Origin: SAR202 cluster bacterium
GTDB taxonomy: Bacteria > Chloroflexota > Dehalococcoidia > Lucifugimonadales > UBA3495
Assembly (NCBI GenBank): GCA_013204585.1
Contig: JABMNL010000003.1
Span: 6,992 to 70,991 of the forward strand
Direction of reading: 5' to 3'
DNA: 64,000 nucleotides
The notes beneath the pieces were generated by a model that worked only from the letters and a program-made list of their open reading frames with translations, ran no database searches and had not been told where the DNA came from. Numbering within the stretch: the stretch's first letter is position 1; each line of letters begins with the position of its first letter. The translations under genes were made by a program, and so were the position numbers. This document shows, in pieces, positions 8,377 through 53,962 of this stretch.

Positions 8377-10359
8377 ATGTTCTCCGATTCGCTACAACCC
8401 ATGAGCCGTTTATTCCTGCTCGTCCTACTCTCGGTGATTACCAGCTTGGCCGCGTGTAATAGACCGTACGGGGATGAATTGACTGTTTCTAGCCCAGCGC
8501 TGATCCCATTGTCAGAAAATGCGCCCGTCACCAAAGAGCCTGAAGCCACCCCCCAACCAACCCCTGTCAAAACATATAGGCCCCGACAATTCAGCGATGC
8601 GCCAGACCGGGACCTTTTCCGGCTAACCCAAGAACTTGTGCCCGGAAGTAGTGATATTTCCAGGACTGTTGATGGGGTCTACACAGAGCTAAAGCCTGGA
8701 CGCACCGACACATTCTGGTTGGTGGATCTCGCAGATACTGTGGCCTACGAAAGCACCTTCGAACTGGCTCTGGTCACTCCCCATGCCTATTGGTATGTCG
8801 AAGATGGCTTAACCATAGACCTGGCTGACCTACAGCGCTCCGCAACCCAGTTCGAAGAAGAAACATATCCGGCGGTAACCCAAGTGTTCGGCAATGAATG
8901 GAACCCTGGGGTCGACAACGACCCTCACCTAAACGTGTTGAATGCCAAACTAAGCGGCGTGGCCGGTTACTTCAGCTCTACTGACGAATACCCAACCGCC
9001 GTTAGACCCCGGAGTAACCAGAGGGAAATCATTTACATGAACGCGGTGAATGTTCCCCCAGGAGGCGCTAACTACGACGAAGTCATAGCCCATGAATTGC
9101 AGCATGCCATCCACTGGAACGCCGACGATTCCGAGGACACCTGGATAAATGAAGGGCTAGCGGAGTTATCGACCAGCATCGTATTCGATAGTCAGTCTTC
9201 CACTAGACAGTTTCTCCGCGCTGGTCCGACATCCTTAATCCACTGGCCCATCGCTCCCGTTGGGGGCATCGCCAGCTACGGGGCATCATCCCTTTTCCTG
9301 CATTTCCTAACCGAGCATTACGGCGGGCGAAGCGACCTCAAGAACTTGATGTCCCAGCCAAATGACGGCATCAACGGCATCAACGGATACTTGGAAAGCC
9401 TGGGTTATGAATCACGTTTTGAAGACGTATTCCGAGAGTGGGCAGCCGCTAATATCTTGGATGGAGACGGAATATTCGGCTATGACGACCTAGATGTAAG
9501 TGTTGCTGTTTCCAAGCGTATTGCTGGATTTGATGAGTTCGAGTCAGAGATTCCCCAATATGCAGTGGAGTACACCGAACTGGAATCCATCTCAGGGCCG
9601 TTCACATTGTCGTTCAAGGGCCCAACCACTGGTCGGCTGCTGCCCGTAGATGTGGGCTCTACTGGGTGTTGGTGGAGCAACTCAGGAGACTCCATCGACA
9701 GCACTCTGACGCGCCGGGTCGGACTTCCGGCAGGCACCACTGGGACTCTGGACTACGAGGTCTGGTTTGAGATTGAAGAGGCCTGGGACTACGCCTACGT
9801 CGAGGCGTCGATTGATGGTGGATCAACCTGGCGAATTATTGAGACTCCGGCAAGCTCTCCAGAGAACCCCATTGGCGCCAGCTTTGGGCCGGGCTACACC
9901 GGCAGTAGTAACCGGCCAGGCAACAATGGTTGGATAAAAGAGTCCGTCGACCTTTCATCGTACGCCGGGACGAATCTTCAAGTCAGGCTTCAATACGTGA
10001 CCGACGACGCCATCAGCGCATCCGGTGCCTGTTTCCGTGGCCTTTCTATTAGCACCCTGGCTCGTAACAAGCTGGATAGAACCTCAGGACTCATAGATAA
10101 CCCGGACGGCATCTATGACTGGCAGGCAAATGGGTTCGTGTTCACCGACAACGTGGTGCGGCAGGACTTCCAAGTACAGTTGATTACCGTAGGAAAAGAG
10201 CCGCTGGTCAGGCAAGTACCGTTGGATGCTACAAACTCGGGGAAATTAACCATCACGCCACCAGTCAATGGGGAACGGTTAATCGTGGCGGTGGGGACAT
10301 TGGCCGAGAAAACCCGGCAACCGACCAGTTATTCCCTCAGGGTCGGGTCGCCGGAATAG
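8377..10359 (+). CDS. secreted lipoprotein zinc metallopeptidase (MA clan, immune-inhibitor-A-like architecture)
   Basis: Signal peptide with the lipobox LAAC; zinc motif HELQHAIHW followed by NEGLAE (HExxH...E). The C-terminal beta-rich domain (WDYAYVEASIDGGSTWRII) resembles the accessory domains of M6-type peptidases. Confidence 0.8.
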   Translation: MFSDSLQPMSRLFLLVLLSVITSLAACNRPYGDELTVSSPALIPLSENAPVTKEPEATPQPTPVKTYRPRQFSDAPDRDLFRLTQELVPGSSDISRTVDGVYTELKPGRTDTFWLVDLADTVAYESTFELALVTPHAYWYVEDGLTIDLADLQRSATQFEEETYPAVTQVFGNEWNPGVDNDPHLNVLNAKLSGVAGYFSSTDEYPTAVRPRSNQREIIYMNAVNVPPGGANYDEVIAHELQHAIHWNADDSEDTWINEGLAELSTSIVFDSQSSTRQFLRAGPTSLIHWPIAPVGGIASYGASSLFLHFLTEHYGGRSDLKNLMSQPNDGINGINGYLESLGYESRFEDVFREWAAANILDGDGIFGYDDLDVSVAVSKRIAGFDEFESEIPQYAVEYTELESISGPFTLSFKGPTTGRLLPVDVGSTGCWWSNSGDSIDSTLTRRVGLPAGTTGTLDYEVWFEIEEAWDYAYVEASIDGGSTWRIIETPASSPENPIGASFGPGYTGSSNRPGNNGWIKESVDLSSYAGTNLQVRLQYVTDDAISASGACFRGLSISTLARNKLDRTSGLIDNPDGIYDWQANGFVFTDNVVRQDFQVQLITVGKEPLVRQVPLDATNSGKLTITPPVNGERLIVAVGTLAEKTRQPTSYSLRVGSPE

Positions 10360-16483: not shown

Positions 16484-18439
16484 ATGGGTAATAACCGATG
16501 GCTTCGCAACAGTCTCATGTACCTGATGATTATCATCGGGGTAATTGTGATTTTCTACACGTTGTTGCCCAGCTTCGGGAGCCGTGCCGAAGAACCGCTA
16601 ACCACAGTCGTGGCCATGGCCAAAAACAATGACATTCGCGAGATTATCATTGACGGTCGCAAGCTTACTGTTTTCCCTAGAAGCACCAGCACGGGCGGAA
16701 GCGACCGATTTATCAGCCGTACCGGCGGTGTCACCGACATAATCAGCCTTCTCATCGACAGCGGTGTTCAGGTTGGCCCTCCCTCCGGCGTTCAAGTGAC
16801 ATTCAAAGGCTCCAGTGGTCTCAGCAGCTTCCTAGGGCTGATGCTCAATTTCTTGCCGTTGATTTTCTTTGGCGGCCTAATCATGTTCATGATGAAGCAG
16901 GCCCAGGGCAGCAATAGCCAGACCATGAGTTTCGGGCGCAGCCGGGCCAAGATGATGCCCTTCAACCGTCCCACAGTATCGTTCAACGATGTGGCGGGCG
17001 TTGATGAGGCGAAAGAAGAACTTCAGGAAGTTGTCGAGTTCCTCAAATTCCCCGAGCGGTTCCTTGCTTTAGGCGCCCGTATCCCCAAGGGCGTTCTGCT
17101 GGTCGGCTCACCGGGCACCGGCAAGACCCTAATGGCTAGGGCAGTGGCTGGAGAAGCTGGCGTTCCATTCTTCCACATCAGCGGTTCCGAGTTCGTAGAG
17201 ATGTTCGTAGGAGTCGGAGCAGCACGGGTTCGCGACCTTTTCGAGCAAGCCAAGCGTAATGCCCCTTGTATCGTATTCATTGACGAAATAGACGCAGTAG
17301 GCCGACACCGTGGCGCTGGTCTTGGCGGTGGACACGACGAACGAGAACAGACACTAAACCAGATTCTGGTTGAGATGGACGGCTTCGAGACTACTACCAA
17401 CATCATAGTAATCGCCGCCACCAACCGCCCAGACATCCTGGATCCAGCCTTGCTGAGGCCCGGACGCTTTGACCGTCGGGTGACCATGGACCTGCCTGAC
17501 ATCGCAGGCCGCAAAGAAATCTTGAAGGTTCACGCCGCAGGTAAACCTCTAGCCCCAGAAGTTACCTTTGACTCTCTAGCCAAAGAAACTCCTGGATTCA
17601 GCGGCGCAGAACTGTCTAACCTAGTCAATGAAGCGGCCATCATGGCTGCCAGAGGCAACAAGAAGTCCATTTTCATGGTGGATTTTGAAGAGGCTGTCGA
17701 CCGGGTTATCGCCGGTCCTCAACGCAAGAGTCGCGTCATCAACCCCAGGGAAAAGGAAATGACGGCCTACCACGAGGCGGGACACGCTCTTGTAGCATGG
17801 GCCATGCCCCACGCCGACCCAGTCCATAAGATTTCAATTGTCGCCCGAGGTTCAATGGGCGGCCATACTTCTTTGGTTCCGGAAGAAGACCGGTATCTGT
17901 GGACCAAGAACCAGTTCAGCGACAGAATGGCCGTAACCATGGGCGGCCGTGTCGCAGAGCAATTGATATTCGACGAAATAACCACCGGCGCTAGTAACGA
18001 TCTGGAACAGGCCACCAAACTGGCTCTGGGGATGATTAAGCGCTATGGAATGAGCGACAACCTGGGCCCCCGGACCTTCGGTAAGGTTCAGGAAATGGTG
18101 TTCTTGGGCCGCGAAATGAGCGAAGAACGAGACTACGGCGATAAGGTAGCGGAAGAGATTGACGTAGAAGTTAAGGCCTTAATCGTCAAGGCTTACAACG
18201 AAGCCGAAGAGATGTTGGTCACTCACAAACCTAAGTTGGTCAGACTGGCTGAGTACCTCATAGAGTACGAGACTGTGTCCGGTGAGGCGATGAACCGGCT
18301 GTTCAACAACGATGGCGAATCTGGCACCCCCGCAGCGCCGCCGGAGAACCCACCGTCATTTAGCCCGACTCACGGACAGCCGTCGGTGCCCAGGCCAGCG
18401 CCAACATTGCCTTCGACGTCCAGCGAGCCGGAAATCTAG
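16484..18439 (+). CDS. ftsH: ATP-dependent zinc metalloprotease FtsH
   Basis: 651 aa, two N-terminal TM helices, Walker A GSPGTGKT, Walker [12 protein letters not shown] region and zinc motif HEAGHAL. Pro-rich C-terminal tail. Confidence 0.97.
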
Positions 18440-18466
18440 TCAACACCACCGATTCCATGCGAACTA

Positions 18467-18504
18467 AAAGAAAGGGGCAGGTCTGAGACCTGCCCCTTTC
18501 TTTT
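18467..18504. terminator. bidirectional rho-independent terminator between ftsH and the convergent small ORF
   Basis: A 17-bp stem aaagaaaggggcaggtc / gacctgcccctttcttt with loop tga is flanked by an A-run and a T-run. Confidence 0.8.
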
Positions 18505-18530
18505 GCCAATATCGAATCTAATTATCAGGG

Positions 18531-18824
18531 TTAGGCTTTTGTTGTTTCTGCCTCGGCCTCTTCTTGGTCTACCCCTTCTTGGTCTATCGGTAGTTGACGG
18601 AAGTACAGGCCCCACTGTTGCATCAGCCCTTGAACCTCAGGGCTCTTAAGCGCGCTAAGTTCTCTGAAGAACCCGGCCAATGCGTGGGCCGGCAGGTGTT
18701 CTTTGGTGCAAACCCAACTACGTTCCGCAGGCACTACGTAAATCTGACCGCGCTGGTGTTCGCAGACAGCTCTGATACGGGTCAAGTCATTACCCTGGAT
18801 TACATCCAGGCCGGTTGTTGTCAT
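18531..18824 (-). CDS. hypothetical small protein (97 aa)
   Basis: It is the only sizeable ORF between ftsH and hflK. It ends just before the bidirectional terminator and has a weak AGGAAC Shine-Dalgarno 6 nt upstream of the ATG. No motif recognised. Confidence 0.4.
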   Translation of the reverse strand: MTTTGLDVIQGNDLTRIRAVCEHQRGQIYVVPAERSWVCTKEHLPAHALAGFFRELSALKSPEVQGLMQQWGLYFRQLPIDQEGVDQEEAEAETTKA

Positions 18825-19140
18825 CTAATTGTTCCTATACCCAAATTTGCCCGGCGAAACGATATTCCAGGCAGGTCTATTATACCTTGAGCAGGGGCCG
18901 CGACGCCGAATCTTTGCCTATAATTTCTGCCCATTAGAATCAACATTCTCCAAGATATGAGCATCCAATCGACATCAAAGAACGTATTAGAAAGCGATAT
19001 CCTCTACCCCGTGAAGAATTTGTGGTTCACGGAACAACCTAGATGATAGAATCAACACGTCATTTGCGCATAGTCGGCAGTGGCCAACAATAGTGCCGCT
19101 GCCGTTGTACAGAAAGCACAGGAATAAGGAATAGACGAAC

Positions 19141-37766: not shown

Positions 37767-37920
37767 ATGACCAAGTTTTTAGGATAAAAGCAGGGTGTCT
37801 TGTCGTCGGACTGACTAGTCCGGCGAATTTCGATGCCCCTTGATGGGGTGTTCCGGTCTCTAATCGACCGTGACCCCGACGCCCGTGGTGCACGTTGTGA
37901 CGGAGGAAGGGAGTACGGGT

Positions 37921-40794
37921 ATGCAGAATTCGGTATCGTTATTCACAATGACGCTGGTGTTCCTGGCAGTCGTTGCAGTGGCATTCTTCTCCAATCAATA
38001 TCCCACCTATGCGGAAGACGACCACGGCGACTACCGGTTCGCGTCGACCCACATTAACATCGGTTCAGGGGCCATCTCTGGCGCTATCGACCCTTCAGAC
38101 ATTCTGTTCGACGTTGATTATTTCTCCTTTCAAGCCGGACGAGGCATTGAATACACCTTCGTATTAGATGAAACCACGGTGGTTGACGCCAACATCACCG
38201 TCGTCAACTCATTGTCCCGTGGCAGCGGCAGTTCACCCGGTCAAAAAATTAACGTTACTGGCGGACAGAAGACCATTACCTGGACCGCCCGCACCACAGA
38301 CACCTATTACATCGAAGTTTCCGGAACCATTAATAATGCCGACGGTTCCTTCTATCTGGGCAATTACACTCTTAGCGCTTTCGAAGACACCCGATATTCG
38401 GATCGCCATGCCGAAGACCGTAACGACGCCACGCAGATTTCTGCCGGAAATGTGTACCAGGGCGCGATTAGCCCCTGGACCAACCAGCCCACTCTGAGTA
38501 ATACCGTTGACGGCGGCGACGATAACGACTATTTCTCTTTCACGGCCCAGCGTGGCGTCAAATATAACGTGGAAGTCGATTTGGGAACATCTGAGGGAGT
38601 GGAAATAGCCATCCACACCGCCTTCGATGGCATGGCAAAAACCAACGACGGAATTGGCAACACGTTGGCATGGATATCTCCCCAGAACAACACCTACTAT
38701 ATCGCCGTGTCCGGCACCAACCGGGTGCGCAACTCGAACGGCACCTACGCTATCAAGCTAAACGCCGAGACCATTCTTTTGGATCAGCACGCAGAATCGG
38801 GCAACGGCGCCACCGTGATTAGCTTCGGAAACGCGCATCAGGGGGCAATCAGTCCCGCCGACGACTTGGACTACTTCTCTTTCCCAGCGCTGCGTGGCGT
38901 CAAATACATGCTTGACGTGACACTCGGCAGCGCGGACGGGGTTGCACTATCGGTGGTTGATACCAACGAGACCAGCCTGGTATCCAATGGCGGCGTGGGG
39001 ACGACCCTTGAATGGCTGGCTCCCGCCACTGGAACTTACCTAGCCGTAGTCTCGGCCTCCCCCCAAGTGCCGGACGTTATCGGCACCTATTCGCTGAACC
39101 TAAGCAGCGACACTACTTTGCAAGACCGCCACGGTGATTCGGTCCTGACGGCTTCGGCGATTAGTTTCGGCAATGCCCATCCCGGCGCGATAAGCCCGGA
39201 GACCGATCGCGATTATTTCTCTTTCTACGCCGAACGGGGCGTCAACTATTCGGTGGCCTTGGAGATGATCTCCGCCAACAGCGCCGTCATCTCAATCGAG
39301 AATGGTAATGGCGAAAAGATTAGCACCACCAACGGATTGGGCACCGGCCTAGGATGGACGGCGGCCAGCACCGGCACATTCTACGTTGTGGTATCCCATT
39401 CAGCGCAGGCCACCCAAGGCATAGGCACCTATTCCCTGACCGTAGAAGCGAACACTAGCCTTGAGGACCGTCACTCAGACACGGCTCTGAGCGGCACGCC
39501 GGTCAGCTTCGGCACGGTGTACCAGGGGGCAATTAGTCCTAAATCTGACCTAGACTACTTCTCATTCCCCACCGAACGGGGCGTGGAATACACTCTCGAT
39601 CTGACCTACGGGTCGGCCACGGCAGTATCCCTTGAGGTCAACACACTAAACGGCGGTTCGGAAACCGGGGCCCGCAACTTCGGAGAGAGCAACATAGTTA
39701 AGTGGACCGCCCCTGATTCGACCACTTATTACATTGCCATCTCATCTTCAGCTAAAGCGTCAGAACCTACGGGCACCTATACGCTGAAGGTTACACCCGA
39801 CACCACCTTACAAGACCGACACAGCGACTCTGCTGCCAACGGCACTGTCATAGGGTTTGGCAATGCCATCTCCGGAGCCATCAGCCCAGCCGACGATTAT
39901 GACTACTTCCGATTCCGGGCCGAGAAGGGAATCACCTACACCGTCGACGTGAATCTGGGCACCGCTGAAGGCGTCCGTTTCTCAGTAGAACAACCACTGG
40001 CCGGGTTTTCTACTTCAAACTTTGGCGTAGAAAAATCTCTCGAATGGGAAGCCCCGGCAACCGGCGATTACACACTGTCTGTCTCAGCCTCAGGCCGGGT
40101 GGGAATTCCAACCGGCACATATCACATAACTGTAAACCGCCAGGGAGACGCCCGGCCTCCGTCACCCTCGGTAGCGCAACCTACACCAGTTCCCACGGAA
40201 GGGCCGCCGCCTAAGATAATAGTGCCCGAAACGACAGCCTTGGTGCTCGATTCTCGGGTGTCACCAACAGGCAGCATTATCCGAGTGCCGGTGAAGCTCA
40301 ACAAGGCCGAGGGCGTCACTAGTCTTGGGTTCACGCTGCACTACAACACCGACGCGCTCCGAGTAATCGGTGTGGAGCAAGGCTCTCGGCTGACAACGGA
40401 GTCCTTTAGTTACGACAACGACACGCCAGGCCAGGTCCGGTTCGGATTTGCCGTGACCAAGGGTAACGGTGCCGGGGGGACAGCGGCGGTGGTCGAGTTT
40501 CAGGTCATCGGCACGGAAGGAACGGTCAGCCCACTTACCCTGTCCGACGCTTTGGTGAGCCACCGTTCGGGCGACCCGTTAACAGTGCAATTGGTGGGAG
40601 CAGATTTCAAGGTGGGCCCCAAGATTCAGGGAGACGCGGACGGCGACAGCCAAATTACTGCCATGGATGCCCTATTGGCCCTGAAGATGGCGTCGAACCT
40701 ACTGACTCCAGACCTTTCTCTGGACATCAACAACGACGGCAAGATAACTATCGATGACGCACGAATCATTCTGAACATGGCCCGGCCGAGCTAG
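37921..40794 (+). CDS. secreted protein: signal peptide + 6 PPC-type (pre-peptidase C-terminal-like) repeats + Pro-rich linker + cohesin-like domain + type-I dockerin
   Basis: Starts MQNSVSLFTMTLVFLAVVAVAFF (GGAGG-rich Shine-Dalgarno; track ORF 37870 is an extension). There are six ~114-aa units with ..DRHxD..ISFGN..QGAISP.DD.DYFSF.A.RGV.Y... The cohesin-like segment is SIIRVPVKLNKAEGVTSLGFTLHYNTDALRVIG...VVEFQVIG. The dockerin duplicate is GDADGDSQITAMDALLALKM / DINNDGKITIDDARIILNM. Confidence 0.85.
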   Translation: MQNSVSLFTMTLVFLAVVAVAFFSNQYPTYAEDDHGDYRFASTHINIGSGAISGAIDPSDILFDVDYFSFQAGRGIEYTFVLDETTVVDANITVVNSLSRGSGSSPGQKINVTGGQKTITWTARTTDTYYIEVSGTINNADGSFYLGNYTLSAFEDTRYSDRHAEDRNDATQISAGNVYQGAISPWTNQPTLSNTVDGGDDNDYFSFTAQRGVKYNVEVDLGTSEGVEIAIHTAFDGMAKTNDGIGNTLAWISPQNNTYYIAVSGTNRVRNSNGTYAIKLNAETILLDQHAESGNGATVISFGNAHQGAISPADDLDYFSFPALRGVKYMLDVTLGSADGVALSVVDTNETSLVSNGGVGTTLEWLAPATGTYLAVVSASPQVPDVIGTYSLNLSSDTTLQDRHGDSVLTASAISFGNAHPGAISPETDRDYFSFYAERGVNYSVALEMISANSAVISIENGNGEKISTTNGLGTGLGWTAASTGTFYVVVSHSAQATQGIGTYSLTVEANTSLEDRHSDTALSGTPVSFGTVYQGAISPKSDLDYFSFPTERGVEYTLDLTYGSATAVSLEVNTLNGGSETGARNFGESNIVKWTAPDSTTYYIAISSSAKASEPTGTYTLKVTPDTTLQDRHSDSAANGTVIGFGNAISGAISPADDYDYFRFRAEKGITYTVDVNLGTAEGVRFSVEQPLAGFSTSNFGVEKSLEWEAPATGDYTLSVSASGRVGIPTGTYHITVNRQGDARPPSPSVAQPTPVPTEGPPPKIIVPETTALVLDSRVSPTGSIIRVPVKLNKAEGVTSLGFTLHYNTDALRVIGVEQGSRLTTESFSYDNDTPGQVRFGFAVTKGNGAGGTAAVVEFQVIGTEGTVSPLTLSDALVSHRSGDPLTVQLVGADFKVGPKIQGDADGDSQITAMDALLALKMASNLLTPDLSLDINNDGKITIDDARIILNMARPS
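38014..40140 (+). repeat. in-frame tandem coding repeats, period about 340-345 bp (first interval ~383 bp), six copies (PPC-like domains)
   Basis: The DRHxD-encoding anchors are at 38401, 38784, 39124, 39466 and 39812, and the first copy is near 38014. The copies are diverged at the DNA level. Confidence 0.7.
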
Positions 40795-40804
40795 GGAGTA
40801 AGAG

Positions 40805-41416
40805 ATGCGCTGGTTGTTAGAAGTCACGTTCATTGGATTAACCTCTAGCTGGAAATGGGTGGCAACGTCGGTCGCCGTAGTCGGCACCCTTGTCGGCATC
40901 TTGTTCGCTTTCGGAGTCTTCAGCGGCGGTGGTGGTGGCGGCAGCGAAGGAACGCCCCCGTTGGTCGTGTCACCAACCCCAATTCCGGCAGCAACAGCCC
41001 TACCAGATCCAACAGCAACTCCAGCCCCTAGGGTAATCTCGGTGCCAATCCTAGCCACCAAGGCTAGCAACGTGGGCAGCTTGGAATTCGTCCTAGTTTA
41101 CGACCCGGCCAAACTCGAGTTTGCCCAGGTTGAACGGGGCGCACTAGCCGGAAACGCGCTAATCGACTCCAGTTCACCTGGGCCGGGGCGACTCTGGGCT
41201 GGGATTATCGACGTCCAAGGATTCGACGGCAGCGGTCCGATAGCGGTGGTGAAGTTCACTGTTCGGAGAGAAGTTAGCGGCTCCATGCCTTTCACCCTGG
41301 AAGACATTGCTGCCTTCGACGCCAGCACCCTGGTGGACATTGTCACCGTAACGACAGCGGGACAATTCAACGGACCCGACTTATCTCCTCTGTCGCCAAT
41401 AGTAACGTTCCAATAA
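40805..41416 (+). CDS. membrane-anchored cohesin-domain protein
   Basis: 203 aa: TM helix WVATSVAVVGTLVGILFAFGVF, a Gly6 and Pro/Thr linker, then the cohesin-like SNVGSLEFVLVYDPAKLEFAQVERG...IAVVKFTVRRE. GGGAG Shine-Dalgarno; it starts 10 nt after the upstream stop. Confidence 0.8.
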   Translation: MRWLLEVTFIGLTSSWKWVATSVAVVGTLVGILFAFGVFSGGGGGGSEGTPPLVVSPTPIPAATALPDPTATPAPRVISVPILATKASNVGSLEFVLVYDPAKLEFAQVERGALAGNALIDSSSPGPGRLWAGIIDVQGFDGSGPIAVVKFTVRREVSGSMPFTLEDIAAFDASTLVDIVTVTTAGQFNGPDLSPLSPIVTFQ

Positions 41417-43240: not shown

Positions 43241-44311
43241 ATGCATGTCGGAACGTCCACCTTTTTCCAGAACCGCAACCAGACCAGGACTGATTACGAG
43301 GTCTACCAGAACGAGCTGCACCTCGCCGACCTGGCCGAACCGTTAGGGTTTGAGTCCATTTGGGGAGTCGAACACCATTTCACCGACTACACCATGTGCC
43401 CCGACGTGCTGCAATTCCTTTCTTACATGGCAGGCCGTACGGAGAAAGTACAACTTGGCAGCATGGTGGTGGTGCTCCCGTGGCATGACCCGATGCGCGT
43501 TGCGGAGCAGTTTTCAGTACTCGACCACCTGAGCGGCGGGCGAGCAATTGTCGGCGTGGGTAGGGGTTTGGCCAGGGTGGAATACGACGCCTTTAAATTG
43601 GACATGGCCGAGTCCCGAATCAGGTTTTCCGAGAGCACCCAACTCTTGGTGCGGGCTTTGGAAGAAGGGGTCGCTGAGTTCGACGGCGAGCTAATCAAGC
43701 AGCCGAGGGTGGACATCCGACCCAAGCCATTCAAGAGTTTCAAGGGACGGACCTACGCTGCCGCCGTTTCACCGGAATCATCGGTTGCCCTGGCTGAGTT
43801 GGGGTTGGGTATGCTCATCATTCCCCAGAAGCCCTGGAAAGATGTTGAAACCGAGTTGAAGGCCTACCGTGAGATTTTTCAAGAAATGAACGGGGCCGCT
43901 CCTCCTGCGCCCATAGTAGTGGGGTTCACTTTCTGCCATGAAGACGAAGACAAGGCCCGGGAGATGGCTGCGGAATACATCGGCAACTATTGGGGGTCAG
44001 TGATGGACCACTACGAATTCCATAGCGACCACTTGAAGACCACCAAGGGTTACGAATACTACGGCAAGTTCACCGAGAAGATTGAACAACTAGGCGACCA
44101 GGACGTAAAGGACTTCTTCGTGGACCTGCAGGTATGGGGCACCCCGGACCAGTGCTACGAGAAAATAATGGACATTCGAGGCCGCACTGGCCACGACTCA
44201 TTCTTGGCGGCGTTCAGCTACGGAGGACTACCCTACGACGAGGCCGAACGGAGCATGAGGCTATTTGCCAAAGAAGTGATGCCTCGATTGAAGAAACTGC
44301 CTGCCGCGTAA
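43241..44311 (+). CDS. LLM-class (luciferase-like) flavin-dependent oxidoreductase
   Basis: Starts MHVGTSTFFQNR (track ORF 43175 is an extension). Contains GFESIWGVEHHFTDY and GGRAIVGVGRG motifs. Confidence 0.85.
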   Translation: MHVGTSTFFQNRNQTRTDYEVYQNELHLADLAEPLGFESIWGVEHHFTDYTMCPDVLQFLSYMAGRTEKVQLGSMVVVLPWHDPMRVAEQFSVLDHLSGGRAIVGVGRGLARVEYDAFKLDMAESRIRFSESTQLLVRALEEGVAEFDGELIKQPRVDIRPKPFKSFKGRTYAAAVSPESSVALAELGLGMLIIPQKPWKDVETELKAYREIFQEMNGAAPPAPIVVGFTFCHEDEDKAREMAAEYIGNYWGSVMDHYEFHSDHLKTTKGYEYYGKFTEKIEQLGDQDVKDFFVDLQVWGTPDQCYEKIMDIRGRTGHDSFLAAFSYGGLPYDEAERSMRLFAKEVMPRLKKLPAA

Positions 44312-44323
44312 GTTAGTCCCGGG

Positions 44324-44941
44324 TCACGCCGACGCCGACCTGATGGCCTCACGCAGTTCGTCGATACTTACATCGCCACGGTGTAGCTCGCCACCAATCA
44401 AATAGGTGGGAGTACCGGTAACCCCTTTCTCTTTGGCTGCTTCGTATTCACCCATCACGGTGTCCCGGTATTCAGCGGACTCGATTCGCGGTCCCAAGTC
44501 TGACCAATCCAAATCAGCGCTCTCCGCAATACTTTTTAAAACGTCCAGATTGTTAACGTCAGCCCCTGACCCCCAAAATGCTCCGGCAGCCAGATGGTGA
44601 AACTGACTGTCCTTTCCCTTTTCCGTCGCGTAGGCGGTAGCCTCGTGGGCCCGCACCGTATTGGGAGACCACTGCGGTCGGCGCATTACAAGGCCAACGC
44701 CTTTTGCCCGCTCTTGCATAGCAGAATTTAACTCCGTTTCAGTCTCCCCTTCATTCATATTGCGAGGCTCTCCTTCCGGTGGACGCTCGGGCCGCAGCAA
44801 GTACGGTTTCCGGTCAACCTCAATCGAAATCTCTCCAGATAGTTCCTTGGCCAACATGTCGAGCCTGCCCAGGCCGACGTAGCAATAGGGTCAAGTGTAA
44901 TCGTGCCAAATAGTCACGTTAACGACGGCGGGTGCGGCCAT
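44324..44941 (-). CDS. DsbA/FrnE-like thiol oxidoreductase with in-frame TGA (44893..44891) at the first redox-Cys position: candidate selenoprotein (U-P-Y-C)
   Basis: The minus strand reads ATG(44941) AAPAVVNVTIWHDYT TGA PYCYVGLGRLDMLAKE..., continuous and in frame with track ORF 44324..44857. A GGAG Shine-Dalgarno lies 7 nt upstream of the ATG. The family motif is W.D..CP.CY.G. Confidence 0.65.
44858..44878 (-). promoter_or_regulatory. candidate bacterial SECIS hairpin
   Basis: The RNA GUCGGCCUGGGCAGGCUCGAC starts 13 nt 3' of the UGA. It forms a 5-bp lower stem, a bulged C and a 2-bp upper stem, with the G-rich apical loop UGGGCA. Confidence 0.4.
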
Positions 44942-45093
44942 GTCGTATCTCCTACCGGTGTGAATTGCTTTCTGGGAGCGATTTCGGGGCATTGTAGCAC
45001 GCAAAAACAGATTCCTCCGCAATATCACGCCTCAAACTCTTAAGAACCCCCAAACCCCGGTGCGATTGACTAACATTGACCGTCCGTTAGATT

Positions 45094-45101
45094 GTTATAA
45101 T
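45094..45101 (+). promoter_or_regulatory. extended -10 element TGtTATAAT upstream of the SDR gene
   Basis: Read directly from the sequence. TTGAC-like hexamers lie 14 and 24 nt upstream, so the -35 assignment is unclear. Confidence 0.3.
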
Positions 45102-53168: not shown

Positions 53169-53174
53169 AGGGCT

Positions 53175-53471
53175 CTAGAACAGCGCCTTCACCCAGGCAA
53201 CGCCGCTGCCCATTCTTACGGTAGTTCGAGTACCGAATTGCCGGGTGCGCTGCTTGAGCAAGGCTAGGTGGTCTGACGCCTGTTCCCAGGGGGCTTGGGT
53301 TTTCCATTCAGCTGGTTCGTTCAGCACCGTCACGAAACCGCCCAAGCGGAACCAGAACAGCATGAACCGGTAGGCTGGCAACACGGCCACCATGTAACAC
53401 AGGTACATCAGTAGCGTTGCGGAAACCACCAAGGGCAACGCGTATCCGAACAGCCACATCATGGGCAGCAC
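53175..53471 (-). CDS. hypothetical small membrane protein; start uncertain
   Basis: Two predicted TM helices. The frame stays open about 35 codons upstream of GTG 53471 without a canonical start codon. No motif recognised. Confidence 0.3.
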   Translation of the reverse strand: MLPMMWLFGYALPLVVSATLLMYLCYMVAVLPAYRFMLFWFRLGGFVTVLNEPAEWKTQAPWEQASDHLALLKQRTRQFGTRTTVRMGSGVAWVKALF

Positions 53472-53803
53472 AAAGGTCCAAACGACCCTGGGGAAGGCGA
53501 GGGTGTGGTCGATGAGGAAACGAGATGGAATTTGTGAGAGTCCGGCCAGATATGAACCTGAATATTCTGTAAGAATTTATAGAGTTACCTAATCCTCACA
53601 CTTTGGTCTGACCGGACCAGTTAAGAATCGCCATTGCCAGGGCCTAAGTCTGGTATACAAAAATGTTTGAATCGGCGGGGTTTGTGCCTGTCTGCGAGAT
53701 GATTTGTACAGTACCGGCTATTAGAAAGACGATTCACGCCTACGCAAGGCATAAATCCCCTTGACGATTCCGTATGAAACTGCGCGGAACGAGCCTATTG
53801 GTA

Positions 53804-53819
53804 CTGTAAATCTTTACAG
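53804..53819. promoter_or_regulatory. perfect palindrome CTGTAAAtcTTTACAG (CTGT-N8-ACAG) about 145 nt upstream of the response-regulator gene
   Basis: Read directly from the sequence. Related half-sites tgtacagtac (about 53711..53720) and gcactgtat (about 53862..53870) lie in the same intergenic region. Confidence 0.3.
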
Positions 53820-53962
53820 GGCATATTAATCGATACCTAACCAATTCGTTAAAGTTTACTTGCACTGTATCAATGGATTCAATTTTTAGGCATACCCCTT
53901 GTGCTACCCAATCACTGATTTGATATAATTTCCTCCGGCCCTCAGAACTACCACGTAACTAA

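What the first reader, a model, noticed from the sequence alone, without database searches (positions are those of the whole stretch)
44324..44941. In-frame TGA at the CxxC position of a DsbA/FrnE-like gene: candidate selenoprotein truncated by the ORF track
The track begins this gene at Met 44857, which would delete the whole redox motif. Upstream, the minus strand stays in frame: ATG (44941) A A P A V V N V T I W H D Y T TGA (44893..44891) P Y C Y V G L G R L D M L A K E. This is exactly the DsbA-family N-terminal strand and motif (I.W.D..C-P-x-C-Y.G) with the first Cys codon replaced by TGA, giving U-P-Y-C. A GGAG Shine-Dalgarno sits 7 nt before ATG 44941, whereas Met 44857 has none. Thirteen nt after the UGA, the RNA GUCGGCCUGGGCAGGCUCGAC can form a bulged hairpin with the G-rich apical loop UGGGCA, in the distance range used by bacterial SECIS elements. 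As I recall, thiol-oxidoreductase-like selenoproteins, including DsbA-like ones, were reported in marine metagenome selenoproteome surveys; this should be verified. No sel genes are in this window.
Basis: partly seen in the sequence, partly recalled or inferred. Interest (0 to 1): 0.7.

Follow-up and report, generated by a model that had tools for sequence, protein, structure and literature searches.

The report
Selenocysteine DsbA/FrnE-like gene, mis-called start
The in-frame TGA is almost certainly a selenocysteine codon at the active site of a cytoplasmic DsbA/FrnE-like redox protein of a marine SAR202-type Chloroflexota bacterium. Gene callers truncate the gene, but this selenoprotein family has been known since 2005.

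Summary
On the minus strand an ORF runs from ATG 44941 (AGGAG 7 nt upstream) through TGA 44893..44891 to the stop at 44326..44324. The 205-aa product matches the whole Pfam DSBA domain. The TGA falls on the first Cys of the CxxC motif, giving U-P-Y-C.

Orthologues in 80 species-level Dehalococcoidia/Chloroflexota genomes all carry TGA at this codon (81/81 with the window). Their true stops are mixed: TAG 46, TAA 18, TGA 17. The peptide upstream of the TGA is under purifying selection. Codons +5 to +11 hold a hairpin (GUCGGCCU-GGGC-AGGCUCGAC). It has the strongest synonymous-site constraint in the gene and one compensatory C-G to U-A change, and it fits the published bacterial SECIS model in 80/81 sequences.

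Cys homologues exist: P0093 (CPFC) and D. radiodurans FrnE. No sel genes or tRNA-Sec lie in the window or in any flank. However, the BSepDB paper lists two of the 80 genomes (UBA1141 and isolate 10f4566d) as Sec-users with 49 and 46 selenoprotein genes.

DsbA-like UxxC selenoproteins were described in 2005 from the Sargasso Sea. Its main value is correcting an annotation.

The parts
44324..44941 (-). Full-length coding sequence of the DsbA/FrnE-like selenoprotein: 205 codons including the Sec codon, plus the stop.
   Evidence: Translation. With U replaced by C, the product matches Pfam PF01323 DSBA over residues 9-200, profile positions 2-190 of 191, 102 bits against a cutoff of 25.6. It aligns to FrnE 5CNW over residues 6-186.
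44939..44941 (-). True start codon, ATG.
   Evidence: An ATG lies exactly 16 codons upstream of the TGA in 61 of 80 orthologues with a detectable start. Against L087, the upstream 16 codons show 3 synonymous and 0 non-synonymous differences.
44949..44953 (-). Shine-Dalgarno sequence AGGAG, 7 nt before the ATG.
   Evidence: Read directly from the sequence. An SD-like purine motif sits upstream of the conserved start in 72/80 orthologues.
44891..44893 (-). In-frame TGA, the predicted selenocysteine codon (residue 17).
   Evidence: TGA occurs at this codon in 81/81 sequences, while terminal stops are TAG 46, TAA 18 and TGA 17. It aligns with the first Cys of CPWC in FrnE and with TGC in P0093/L081.
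44882..44893 (-). Redox motif U-P-Y-C (residues 17-20).
   Evidence: Motif pattern W-x-D-Y-T-U-P-[YFW]-C: Pro, Cys and the preceding Trp, Asp and Tyr are invariant in all 81, and Thr in 80/81 (Ala in L009). Cys20 is the only Cys in the protein.
44858..44878 (-). SECIS-like hairpin GUCGGCCU-GGGC-AGGC(U)CGAC. The apical loop GGGC is at 44867..44870 and starts 20 nt after the UGA.
   Evidence: Fold energy -10.0 kcal/mol. RNAalifold finds a core of 4 pairs, one with a compensatory C-G to U-A change in 5 sequences and U-G in 2. In the 8-bp model 91% of cells are paired, against 25-46% when the partners are slid. Synonymous entropy ratio is 0.38 here against 0.89 +/- 0.16 elsewhere. 80/81 sequences pass the bSECIS criteria.
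44855..44857 (-). Met29, the start chosen by the ORF track. It is an internal codon, not the start.
   Evidence: This codon is Ile in 36, Lys in 30 and Met in only 10 of the 81 orthologues. Database gene calls start at several different downstream positions.
44408..44416 (-). G176-T177-P178, the thioredoxin-fold cis-Pro loop opposite the active site.
   Evidence: These residues are invariant in alignment A1. They align with GVP of FrnE. Their role is inferred from what is known of the DsbA/thioredoxin fold.
44324..44326 (-). Genuine stop codon, TGA.
   Evidence: Orthologues end at the same position with TAG or TAA. TGA therefore still works as a stop in this lineage.

Best explanation
The gene at 44941..44324 on the minus strand encodes a 205-residue cytoplasmic thiol-disulfide oxidoreductase of the DsbA/FrnE (PF01323, COG2761) family. 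It has no signal peptide. Its N-terminal, nucleophilic active-site cysteine is replaced by selenocysteine, giving the motif U17-P-Y-C20.

Proposed mechanism:
1. Translation starts at ATG 44941.
2. When UGA 44893..44891 reaches the ribosomal A site, the mRNA hairpin 12 nt downstream (44878..44858) acts as a bacterial SECIS. Its GGGC loop begins 20 nt after the UGA.
3. The hairpin recruits SelB-GTP-Sec-tRNA(Sec), so Sec is inserted instead of termination.
4. In the protein, Sec17 and Cys20 cycle between the selenol/thiol state and a selenenylsulfide. This catalyses thiol-disulfide exchange more efficiently than a Cys-Cys pair.

Shown here: the ORF and its family assignment; universal conservation of the TGA; protein-level selection upstream of it; RNA-level selection on the hairpin; and Sec/Cys pairing with homologues.

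Inferred: actual Sec insertion, SelB binding to this hairpin, the presence of the machinery in this particular genome, the cytoplasmic location, and the enzyme's substrate.
For: 1. The read-through product matches the whole DSBA domain, including the first strand and the active-site motif that the truncated call lacks. It aligns with FrnE so that U falls on the first Cys of CPWC.

2. Among 80 species-representative Dehalococcoidia/Chloroflexota genomes plus the window, the codon is TGA in 81/81. It is never TAA or TAG, while the true stop is TAG 46, TAA 18, TGA 17. The TGA is also present in L087 (90% identity, syntenic) and in a 38%-identical subfamily, L085/L086.

3. The segment upstream of the TGA is translated. 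W, D and Y are invariant and T is present in 80/81. Val and Thr codons there vary at third positions while the amino acid is kept. Against L087 there are 3 synonymous and 0 non-synonymous changes. ATG lies at -16 codons in 61/80, with an SD-like motif in 72/80.

4. RNA-level constraint is strong. Arg+9 is AGG or AGA in 80/81, against 12.7% of Arg codons in the rest of the gene. Leu+7 is CTG in 79/79, against 53%. The lowest synonymous-entropy windows of the whole gene all overlap codons +5 to +11. The GGC/AGG to GGT/AGA double synonymous change keeps the base pair.

5. 80/81 sequences satisfy the published bSECIS constraints. 70 of them have a GGNN tetraloop exactly 20 nt from the UGA (criteria from PMC13188914).

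6. Cys forms exist. P0093 has TGC at the site and is 70.6% identical to some Sec forms, so it is nested inside the Sec clade. More distant homologues have CPHC or CPWC.

7. Two of the orthologue-bearing genomes are listed in BSepDB with 49 and 46 selenoprotein genes: UBA1141 (L019) and isolate 10f4566d (L017). BSepDB required at least two of SelA, SelB and SelD.

8. A second known selenoprotein family, DUF3179 with the motif Y-U-T-L-C, has a conserved TGA in 10 of the related loci. A GGAAU/AUUCC hairpin lies at about the same distance in 7 of the 10 unconstrained folds.

9. The family is described in the literature as 'DsbA-like protein, COG2761, UxxC' (PMC1088965; PMC5029168; PMC13188914).
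Against: - No selA, selB, selD or tRNA-Sec was found in the window or within +/-10 kb of any of the 80 orthologues.
- The rest of the window's genome could not be searched, so the machinery is not shown for this organism.
- The hairpin's thermodynamic stability is not unusual for this G+C content (z = -1.76 alone, +0.25 in context).
- The bSECIS criteria are loose: 17% of all TGA triplets in the window pass them.
- Covariation is thin because the element is nearly invariant. Only one pair has double changes, and the shuffle controls are only marginal.
- The lower stem is broken or shifted in register in many orthologues.
- There is no experimental evidence of Sec incorporation.
Confidence: 0.92

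Rival explanations
1. Pseudogene, or a genuinely shorter gene. On this reading the TGA is a real stop or an inactivating nonsense mutation, and the functional product, if any, starts at Met 44857 and lacks the redox motif.
For: Gene callers and GenBank annotations treat the orthologues this way: 165-178 aa 'DsbA family protein' entries. Two of 81 orthologues carry frameshifts (L051, L052).
Against: A nonsense mutation would not be preserved in 81/81 species-level genomes spanning 52-100% identity, and it would not always be TGA. The upstream 16 codons are under purifying selection, with a conserved ATG and SD. Met 44857 is not conserved: that codon is Ile or Lys in 66 of 81. A DsbA domain without its first strand and CxxC motif has no catalytic site.
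Confidence: 0.02
2. UGA is read through or recoded by a mechanism other than Sec insertion. Candidates are near-cognate suppression inserting Trp or Cys, or a lineage-wide reassignment of UGA as in genetic codes 4 or 25. The conserved hairpin would then act as a general read-through stimulator.
For: The Sec machinery was not seen in this window or in any flank. TGA is under-used as a stop in this clade: 5 of 48 long ORFs in the window and 26% in the related loci.
Against: TGA still terminates genes. It ends this very gene in 17/81 orthologues, at the position where the others have TAG or TAA, and it ends 26% of long ORFs in the flanks. The recoded codon sits exactly on a catalytic Cys, and a TGC form occurs in a nested relative. 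That is the signature of Sec, not of Trp or Gly. The hairpin matches the bSECIS geometry, and a similar one at about the same distance follows the UGA of the DUF3179 gene in most of the 10 loci. Two orthologue-bearing genomes are published Sec-users.
Confidence: 0.04
3. Sequencing or assembly error. On this reading the TGA is really TGC or TGT in the organism.
For: The window is probably from a metagenome assembly; the 100% protein match P0002 comes from JGI/Logan sources.
Against: The same TGA is present in independent assemblies: L082 from SRR28106091, L087 and L088 from ENA, and 80 further genomes, including long-read complete chromosomes.
Confidence: 0.005

Closest known systems
DsbA-like selenoprotein, 'form 1' (PF01323/COG2761, UxxC). 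First described in the Sargasso Sea selenoproteome (Zhang, Fomenko & Gladyshev 2005, PMC1088965) and listed in later surveys (PMC1794560, PMC5029168, PMC13188914).
   Same: Same Pfam/COG family. Same UxxC motif, with Sec at the first position. Marine metagenomic origin. A SECIS hairpin with G in the apical loop lies just downstream of the UGA.
   Different: The published lists seen here do not assign the family to SAR202-type Dehalococcoidia. Here the family is shown in 80 species-level genomes of that class.
Deinococcus radiodurans FrnE, a cytoplasmic DsbA-like disulfide oxidoreductase (PDB 5CNW, 5CP1, 5E59).
   Same: It is the best solved-structure match (E = 3e-15, residues 6-186). It shares the same first strand and the W-x-D-x-x-C-P-x-C-Y-x-G motif, the same G-x-P cis-Pro loop, and the absence of a signal peptide.
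   Different: FrnE has Cys, not Sec. FrnE is 260 aa, with a C-terminal tail that, as I recall, carries a second CX4C motif. The window protein ends at residue 205 and has only one Cys. Overall identity is low.
E. coli fdhF-type bacterial SECIS, and the generalised bSECIS model (bSECISearch).
   Same: A hairpin inside the coding region immediately 3' of the UGA. It has a small apical loop starting with GG or GU, a loop 16-37 nt from the UGA, a bulged U and MFE at or below -7.5 kcal/mol. The loop GGUC in the L062-L080 group is, as I recall, the same as the fdhF loop.
   Different: The conserved core is very short: 4-5 G-C-rich pairs plus a variable lower stem. The bulged U is on the 3' side. Binding by SelB is untested.
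DUF3179 (PF11376) selenoprotein family, UxxC/T.
   Same: It is found with a conserved TGA (Y-U-T-L-C-G) 7-10 kb from the DsbA-like gene in 10 related genomes. In 7 of the 10 unconstrained folds a hairpin loop lies about 20-21 nt after the UGA. It is listed as a known selenoprotein family.
   Different: It is a different protein family and it is not present in this window. It is relevant only as independent evidence that these genomes decode UGA as Sec.

Membership tests
Bacterial selenoprotein gene (UGA-Sec recoding) | The in-frame UGA aligns with Cys in homologues (a Sec/Cys pair). | tested here: met
   P0093/L081 has TGC at the same codon. FrnE has CPWC. P0127-P0133 have CPHC or CPWC.
Bacterial selenoprotein gene (UGA-Sec recoding) | Protein-coding conservation on both sides of the UGA, and conservation of the UGA itself. 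| tested here: met
   TGA in 81/81 sequences. Upstream W-x-D-Y-T and downstream P-x-C-Y-x-G are conserved. Synonymous variation occurs upstream.
Bacterial selenoprotein gene (UGA-Sec recoding) | [quoted passage not shown] | tested here: met
   The window element has loop GGGC, spacing 20 and -11.5 kcal/mol over UGA plus 40 nt. 80/81 orthologues pass. Caveat: 17% of random TGA triplets also pass. Synonymous constraint and one compensatory pair support it.
Bacterial selenoprotein gene (UGA-Sec recoding) | selA, selB, selD and tRNA-Sec are present in the same genome. | not testable with these tools
   They are absent from the window and from all +/-10 kb flanks. Indirect evidence: BSepDB lists the genomes of L019 (UBA1141) and L017 (10f4566d) as Sec-users with 49 and 46 selenoprotein genes.
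Bacterial selenoprotein gene (UGA-Sec recoding) | Selenium incorporation demonstrated by 75Se labelling or mass spectrometry. | not testable with these tools
   This needs an experiment.
DsbA / FrnE-like thioredoxin-fold oxidoreductases (Pfam PF01323, COG2761) | A full-length match to the DSBA profile above the gathering threshold. | tested here: met
   102.3 bits against a cutoff of 25.6, residues 9-200 on profile positions 2-190 of 191.
DsbA / FrnE-like thioredoxin-fold oxidoreductases (Pfam PF01323, COG2761) | A C-x-x-C active site after the first strand, plus a cis-Pro loop. | tested here: met
   U-P-Y-C aligns to CPWC of FrnE. G-T-P is invariant and aligns to GVP. The first Cys is replaced by the UGA codon.
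Periplasmic DsbA proper (E. coli type) | An N-terminal signal peptide and a periplasmic location. | tested here: not met
   The DSBA domain starts at residue 9, and the first strand begins around residue 6, so there is no room for a signal peptide. This is by inspection; no signal-peptide predictor was run.
D. radiodurans FrnE subclass | A C-terminal tail with a second Cys pair (recalled from the FrnE literature). | tested here: not met
   The protein ends at residue 205 and contains a single Cys, C20. FrnE is 260 aa, and the alignment stops at FrnE residue 200.

The most novel reading that the evidence does not exclude
The most novel reading that the evidence does not exclude concerns SAR202-type Dehalococcoidia as a lineage. 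They may use an unusually minimal and rigidly fixed SECIS: a 4-5 bp G-C core with a GGNN tetraloop exactly 20 nt after the UGA. This element is nearly invariant at the nucleotide level across proteins only 38-52% identical, and a similar geometry appears in an unrelated DUF3179 selenoprotein. The same genomes may also have shifted stop-codon usage away from TGA towards TAG (46% TAG and 26% TGA at 61% G+C). That shift could be an adaptation to a very large selenoproteome. If so, the DsbA-like gene would be a marker of a lineage-wide remodelling of UGA decoding, not just one more selenoprotein.
Probability: 0.2. Interest if true: 0.45.

Novelty: new member of a known kind. Interest (0 to 1): 0.3.

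Why it matters
**Annotation.** Every database entry retrieved for close relatives of this protein (identity of about 60% or more) except one (the Cys-form P0093) is a 130-182 aa fragment that lacks the catalytic motif. That covers 119 of the top 120 clusters, including GenBank 'DsbA family protein' entries. No NCBIfam selenoprotein model covers the family. Functional inferences and metaproteomic searches for these abundant marine bacteria therefore miss the active enzyme.

**Biology.** The result adds a clean, deeply conserved example: 80 species, one Sec-to-Cys reversal, and a nearly invariant SECIS. It supports the picture that SAR202-type Dehalococcoidia are selenium-dependent and selenoprotein-rich.

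**Limits.** It does not reveal a new mechanism or a new family. DsbA-like UxxC selenoproteins have been known since 2005, and Dehalococcoidia are already listed among the most selenoprotein-rich bacteria.

Tried and rejected
1. Searching for the Sec machinery near the gene found nothing.
   - ARAGORN on the window and on 1.6 Mb of related loci found 5 tRNAs, none of them tRNA-Sec.
   - tblastn with E. coli SelA, SelB and SelD, fetched from NC_000913, found only one weak GTPase hit.
   - The sel genes are therefore not linked to this gene.

2. A Sec/Cys-pair scan of all six frames of the window and flanks gave many high-count hits. These were off-frame or antisense artefacts of conserved genes, with Arg/Ser/Pro-rich junk translations. 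After removing TGAs that lie inside longer ORFs, only DUF3179 survived as a second credible selenoprotein. No further candidate was found in the window.

3. Thermodynamic significance of the hairpin was not convincing on its own.

4. The covariation statistics are weak because the element is almost invariant. I used synonymous-site entropy instead.

5. The Rfam scan at gathering thresholds returned nothing in the window.

7. The promoter and terminator scan found nothing on the gene's strand.

8. The BSepDB supplements are not held. I could not confirm that this exact gene is in BSepDB.

Full report
**1. The observation**

Reading the minus strand of 44200..45100 and translating it confirms each sequence statement.
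- ATG is at 44941..44939, preceded by AGGAG (44953..44949) with a 7-nt spacer.
- The frame stays open through MAAPAVVNVTIWHDYT, then TGA (44893..44891), then PYCYVGLGRLDMLAKE..., down to the stop TGA at 44326..44324.
- The mechanical ORF list gives only 44324..44857 (177 aa), starting at Met29.
- With the TGA read as Cys, the 205-aa product matches Pfam DSBA (PF01323) over residues 9-200, profile positions 2-190 of 191, at 102 bits against a cutoff of 25.6. The segment upstream of the TGA is therefore part of the domain.
- NCBIfam has no specific model for it. The only hit is a sub-threshold match to a thioredoxin-like (seleno)lipoprotein family.
- The window holds no tRNA and no Rfam family.

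**2. Relatives**

A search of 5.8 billion proteins returned 300 hits.
- Of the top 120 clusters (58-100% identity, marine Chloroflexota where a source names them), 119 are 130-182 aa and cover only about 63-89% of the query. They begin just after the redox motif, at varying false starts.
- The exception is P0093, which is 202 aa, full length, and has CPFC.

I then fetched orthologous loci from one genome per GTDB species.
- This gave 80 loci, all Dehalococcoidia/Chloroflexota MAGs, one of them labelled 'SAR202 cluster bacterium'. Many are complete long-read chromosomes.
- In all 80, and in the window, the codon in W-x-D-Y-[T/A]-_-P-[YFW]-C is a stop, and it is TGA every time (81/81).
- The genuine terminal stop of the same genes is TAG in 46, TAA in 18 and TGA in 17.
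- TGA therefore still terminates translation in this lineage. The internal codon is not a random nonsense mutation.
- The same TGA is present in independent assemblies of closer relatives (L082, L087, L088) and in a subfamily only 38% identical (L085, L086).

**3. Is the upstream segment translated?**

- Trp, Asp and Tyr upstream of the TGA are invariant, and Thr at -1 is present in 80/81.
- Val and Thr codons at -8, -7 and -6 keep the amino acid while their third positions vary.
- Against the 90%-identical syntenic L087, the 16 upstream codons differ at three sites, all synonymous.
- An ATG lies exactly 16 codons before the TGA in 61 of 80 orthologues, and 72 of 80 have an SD-like motif.
- Met 44857 is not conserved: that codon is Ile in 36, Lys in 30 and Met in 10.
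- Two orthologues (L051, L052) have frameshifts. These may be assembly errors or real decay. The other 79 are intact.

**4. The RNA element**

The 21 nt at 44878..44858 fold as ((((((((....)))).)))) at -10.0 kcal/mol. The loop is GGGC and starts 20 nt after the UGA.

Taken alone this is weak evidence.
- The z-score is -1.76 for the hairpin and +0.25 in 48 nt of context.
- 17% of all TGA triplets in the window satisfy the published bSECIS constraints (constraints quoted from PMC13188914).

The comparative evidence is strong.
- In an 81-sequence alignment (A2), RNAalifold keeps a core of four pairs. One of them shows C-G in 74 sequences, U-A in 5 (both sides changed, through synonymous GGC to GGT and AGG to AGA), and U-G in 2.
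- In my 8-pair model 91% of cells are paired, against 25-46% when the 3' partners are slid. The shuffle controls are only marginal, because the element hardly varies.
- Codon usage shows the constraint directly. Arg+9 is AGG or AGA in 80/81, against 12.7% of Arg codons in the rest of these genes. Leu+7 is CTG in 79/79, against 53%. Gly+6 is GGC in 74/81, against 54%.
- Relative synonymous entropy is 0.38 over codons +5 to +11, against 0.89 +/- 0.16 for the rest of the gene. The ten lowest sliding windows of the whole gene lie at or immediately around the UGA, and nine of them overlap the hairpin.
- Under unconstrained folding of UGA plus 40 nt, 80 of 81 orthologues meet all bSECIS criteria. 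70 of them have a GGNN tetraloop at a spacing of 20 nt.
- The lower stem is less conserved. GTC to GTG variants shift its register.

**5. Sec/Cys pairing and the fold**

- The closest solved structure is D. radiodurans FrnE (5CNW, E = 3e-15). Its VDIWSDIACPWCYIG aligns with VTIWHDYT-U-PYCYVG, and the G-x-P cis-Pro loop is conserved.
- P0093 has TGC at the site (L081). It is 70.6% identical to some Sec forms, which is more than the window is to many Sec forms (51.5%). It is therefore nested in the Sec clade and probably a Sec-to-Cys reversal. It still folds into a similar hairpin.
- More distant full-length homologues carry CPHC or CPWC.
- The window protein has no room for a signal peptide, and it has only one Cys. 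It also lacks the FrnE C-terminal tail. It is best described as a cytoplasmic FrnE-like enzyme, not a periplasmic DsbA.

**6. Sec machinery**

- None was found in the window or within 10 kb of any orthologue. Whole genomes could not be searched.
- The BSepDB paper (PMC13326102) ranks 'Dehalococcoidia bacterium UBA1141' (49 selenoprotein genes) and 'Dehalococcoidia bacterium 10f4566d-ab44-49ae-b774-fc9f760c6436' (46) among the richest bacteria. It required at least two of SelA, SelB and SelD for inclusion. These are the genomes of my L019 and L017. Both carry the TGA and the same hairpin core.
- A sponge-microbiome study also reports SelA and SelB co-occurring in most symbiont bins.
- Independently, 10 related loci carry a DUF3179 gene (PF11376, E = 5e-76) with a conserved TGA in Y-U-T-L-C-G. 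In 7 of the 10 unconstrained folds a GGAAU/AUUCC hairpin loop lies about 20-21 nt after the UGA. DUF3179 is a listed selenoprotein family.

**7. Comparison with what is known**

- 'DsbA-like protein' (COG2761, UxxC, nine sequences) was one of the new selenoprotein families found in the Sargasso Sea in 2005 (PMC1088965).
- It recurs in later censuses: 41 organisms in PMC5029168, and 'DsbA-like protein form 1, PF01323, UxxC' in the 2026 review.
- What this analysis adds is modest:
  - the family's universal presence in SAR202-type Dehalococcoidia;
  - near-invariance of the SECIS at the nucleotide level;
  - one Sec-to-Cys reversal;
  - the fact that public gene calls truncate the protein.

**8. 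Context and verdict**

The window is an ordinary chromosomal stretch.
- Housekeeping genes include ligA, pth, glnA, two amt genes, ftsH, sucCD, gatB and PDH E1.
- It also carries the oxidative-enzyme genes I recall as typical of SAR202: a luciferase-like monooxygenase, a Rieske oxygenase, an amidase and an SDR.
- No other selenoprotein candidate was found in it.

It is a new member of a known family, and its interest is low to moderate.

Noticed in passing
L002 minus strand, TGA at 18273..18271. The same gene occurs in L004, L022, L026, L028, L031, L033, L044, L045 and L052. It is not in the window.: A DUF3179 protein of about 500 aa (PF11376, E = 4.7e-76) has a conserved in-frame TGA in the motif F-A-L-A-Y-U-T-L-C-G-S-G. 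A GGAAU-CGUGU-AUUCC hairpin follows, with its loop about 20-21 nt after the UGA in 7 of the 10 unconstrained folds. The gene lies 7-10 kb from the DsbA-like gene. DUF3179 is a listed selenoprotein family. Here it serves as independent evidence of Sec decoding in these genomes.
   Followed up: partly
Whole window (49 non-overlapping ORFs of at least 100 aa, 48 with a complete stop) and loci L001-L080.: TGA is strikingly under-used as a stop codon. The window has TAA 24, TAG 19 and TGA 5 at 55.7% G+C. The 80 related loci plus the window have TAG 46%, TAA 28% and TGA 26% at a mean G+C of 61%. As I recall, TGA usually dominates and TAG is the rarest stop at this G+C content. This could relate to the large selenoproteome.
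   Followed up: partly
L081 2044..2652 (protein P0093).: This is a Cys form (TGC, CPFC) of the same protein. It is 70.6% identical to some Sec forms, so it is nested within the Sec clade. It still carries a hairpin, GUCAGCCUGGGACGGCUGGAC, at the same place. This looks like a recent Sec-to-Cys conversion with a leftover SECIS.
   Followed up: partly
Window 44894..44896 (codon -1) and 44888..44890 (codon +1), and the same codons in L001-L080.: The codons flanking the UGA are also synonymously constrained. Thr-1 is ACT in 77/80, against 14% ACT elsewhere in the gene. Pro+1 is CCC in 69/81. This suggests a preferred context, ACU-UGA-CCC, for recoding.
   Followed up: no
L085 1275..1808 and L086 487..1020 (protein P0135), with the upstream TGA about 84 nt before the called start.: A DsbA-like subfamily only 38% identical to P0093 (motif FWYDYI-U-PWC) has the same TGA and the nearly identical hairpin AUCGGCCUGGCCAGGCUCGAC. 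Several other N-terminally truncated hits of 160-180 aa (P0148, P0157, P0161, P0170, P0173 and others) may be further unrecognised Sec forms.
   Followed up: partly
L051 around 9990..10030, and L052 around 10140.: Two of the 80 orthologues carry frameshifts. In L051 the shift lies in the N-terminal strand. In L052 it lies about 30 codons after the Sec codon. These are either assembly errors or real pseudogenisation.
   Followed up: no
Window 37870..41416 (+).: Two adjacent proteins carry cohesin domains: one of 974 aa with cohesin and PPC domains, and one of 203 aa. This is unusual for a free-living marine Chloroflexota bacterium. The arrangement is conserved in the syntenic contig L087.
   Followed up: no
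Window 53169..53962 and 18440..19140.: Two intergenic gaps of about 700-800 nt contain no ORF of at least 100 aa and no Rfam match at gathering thresholds. They were not examined further.
   Followed up: no
Window 44991..44999 (minus strand).: The sequence TGcTACAAT lies about 50 nt upstream of ATG 44941. It looks like an extended -10 promoter element for the selenoprotein gene. The consensus scan, which requires a -35 hexamer as well, did not call it.
   Followed up: no
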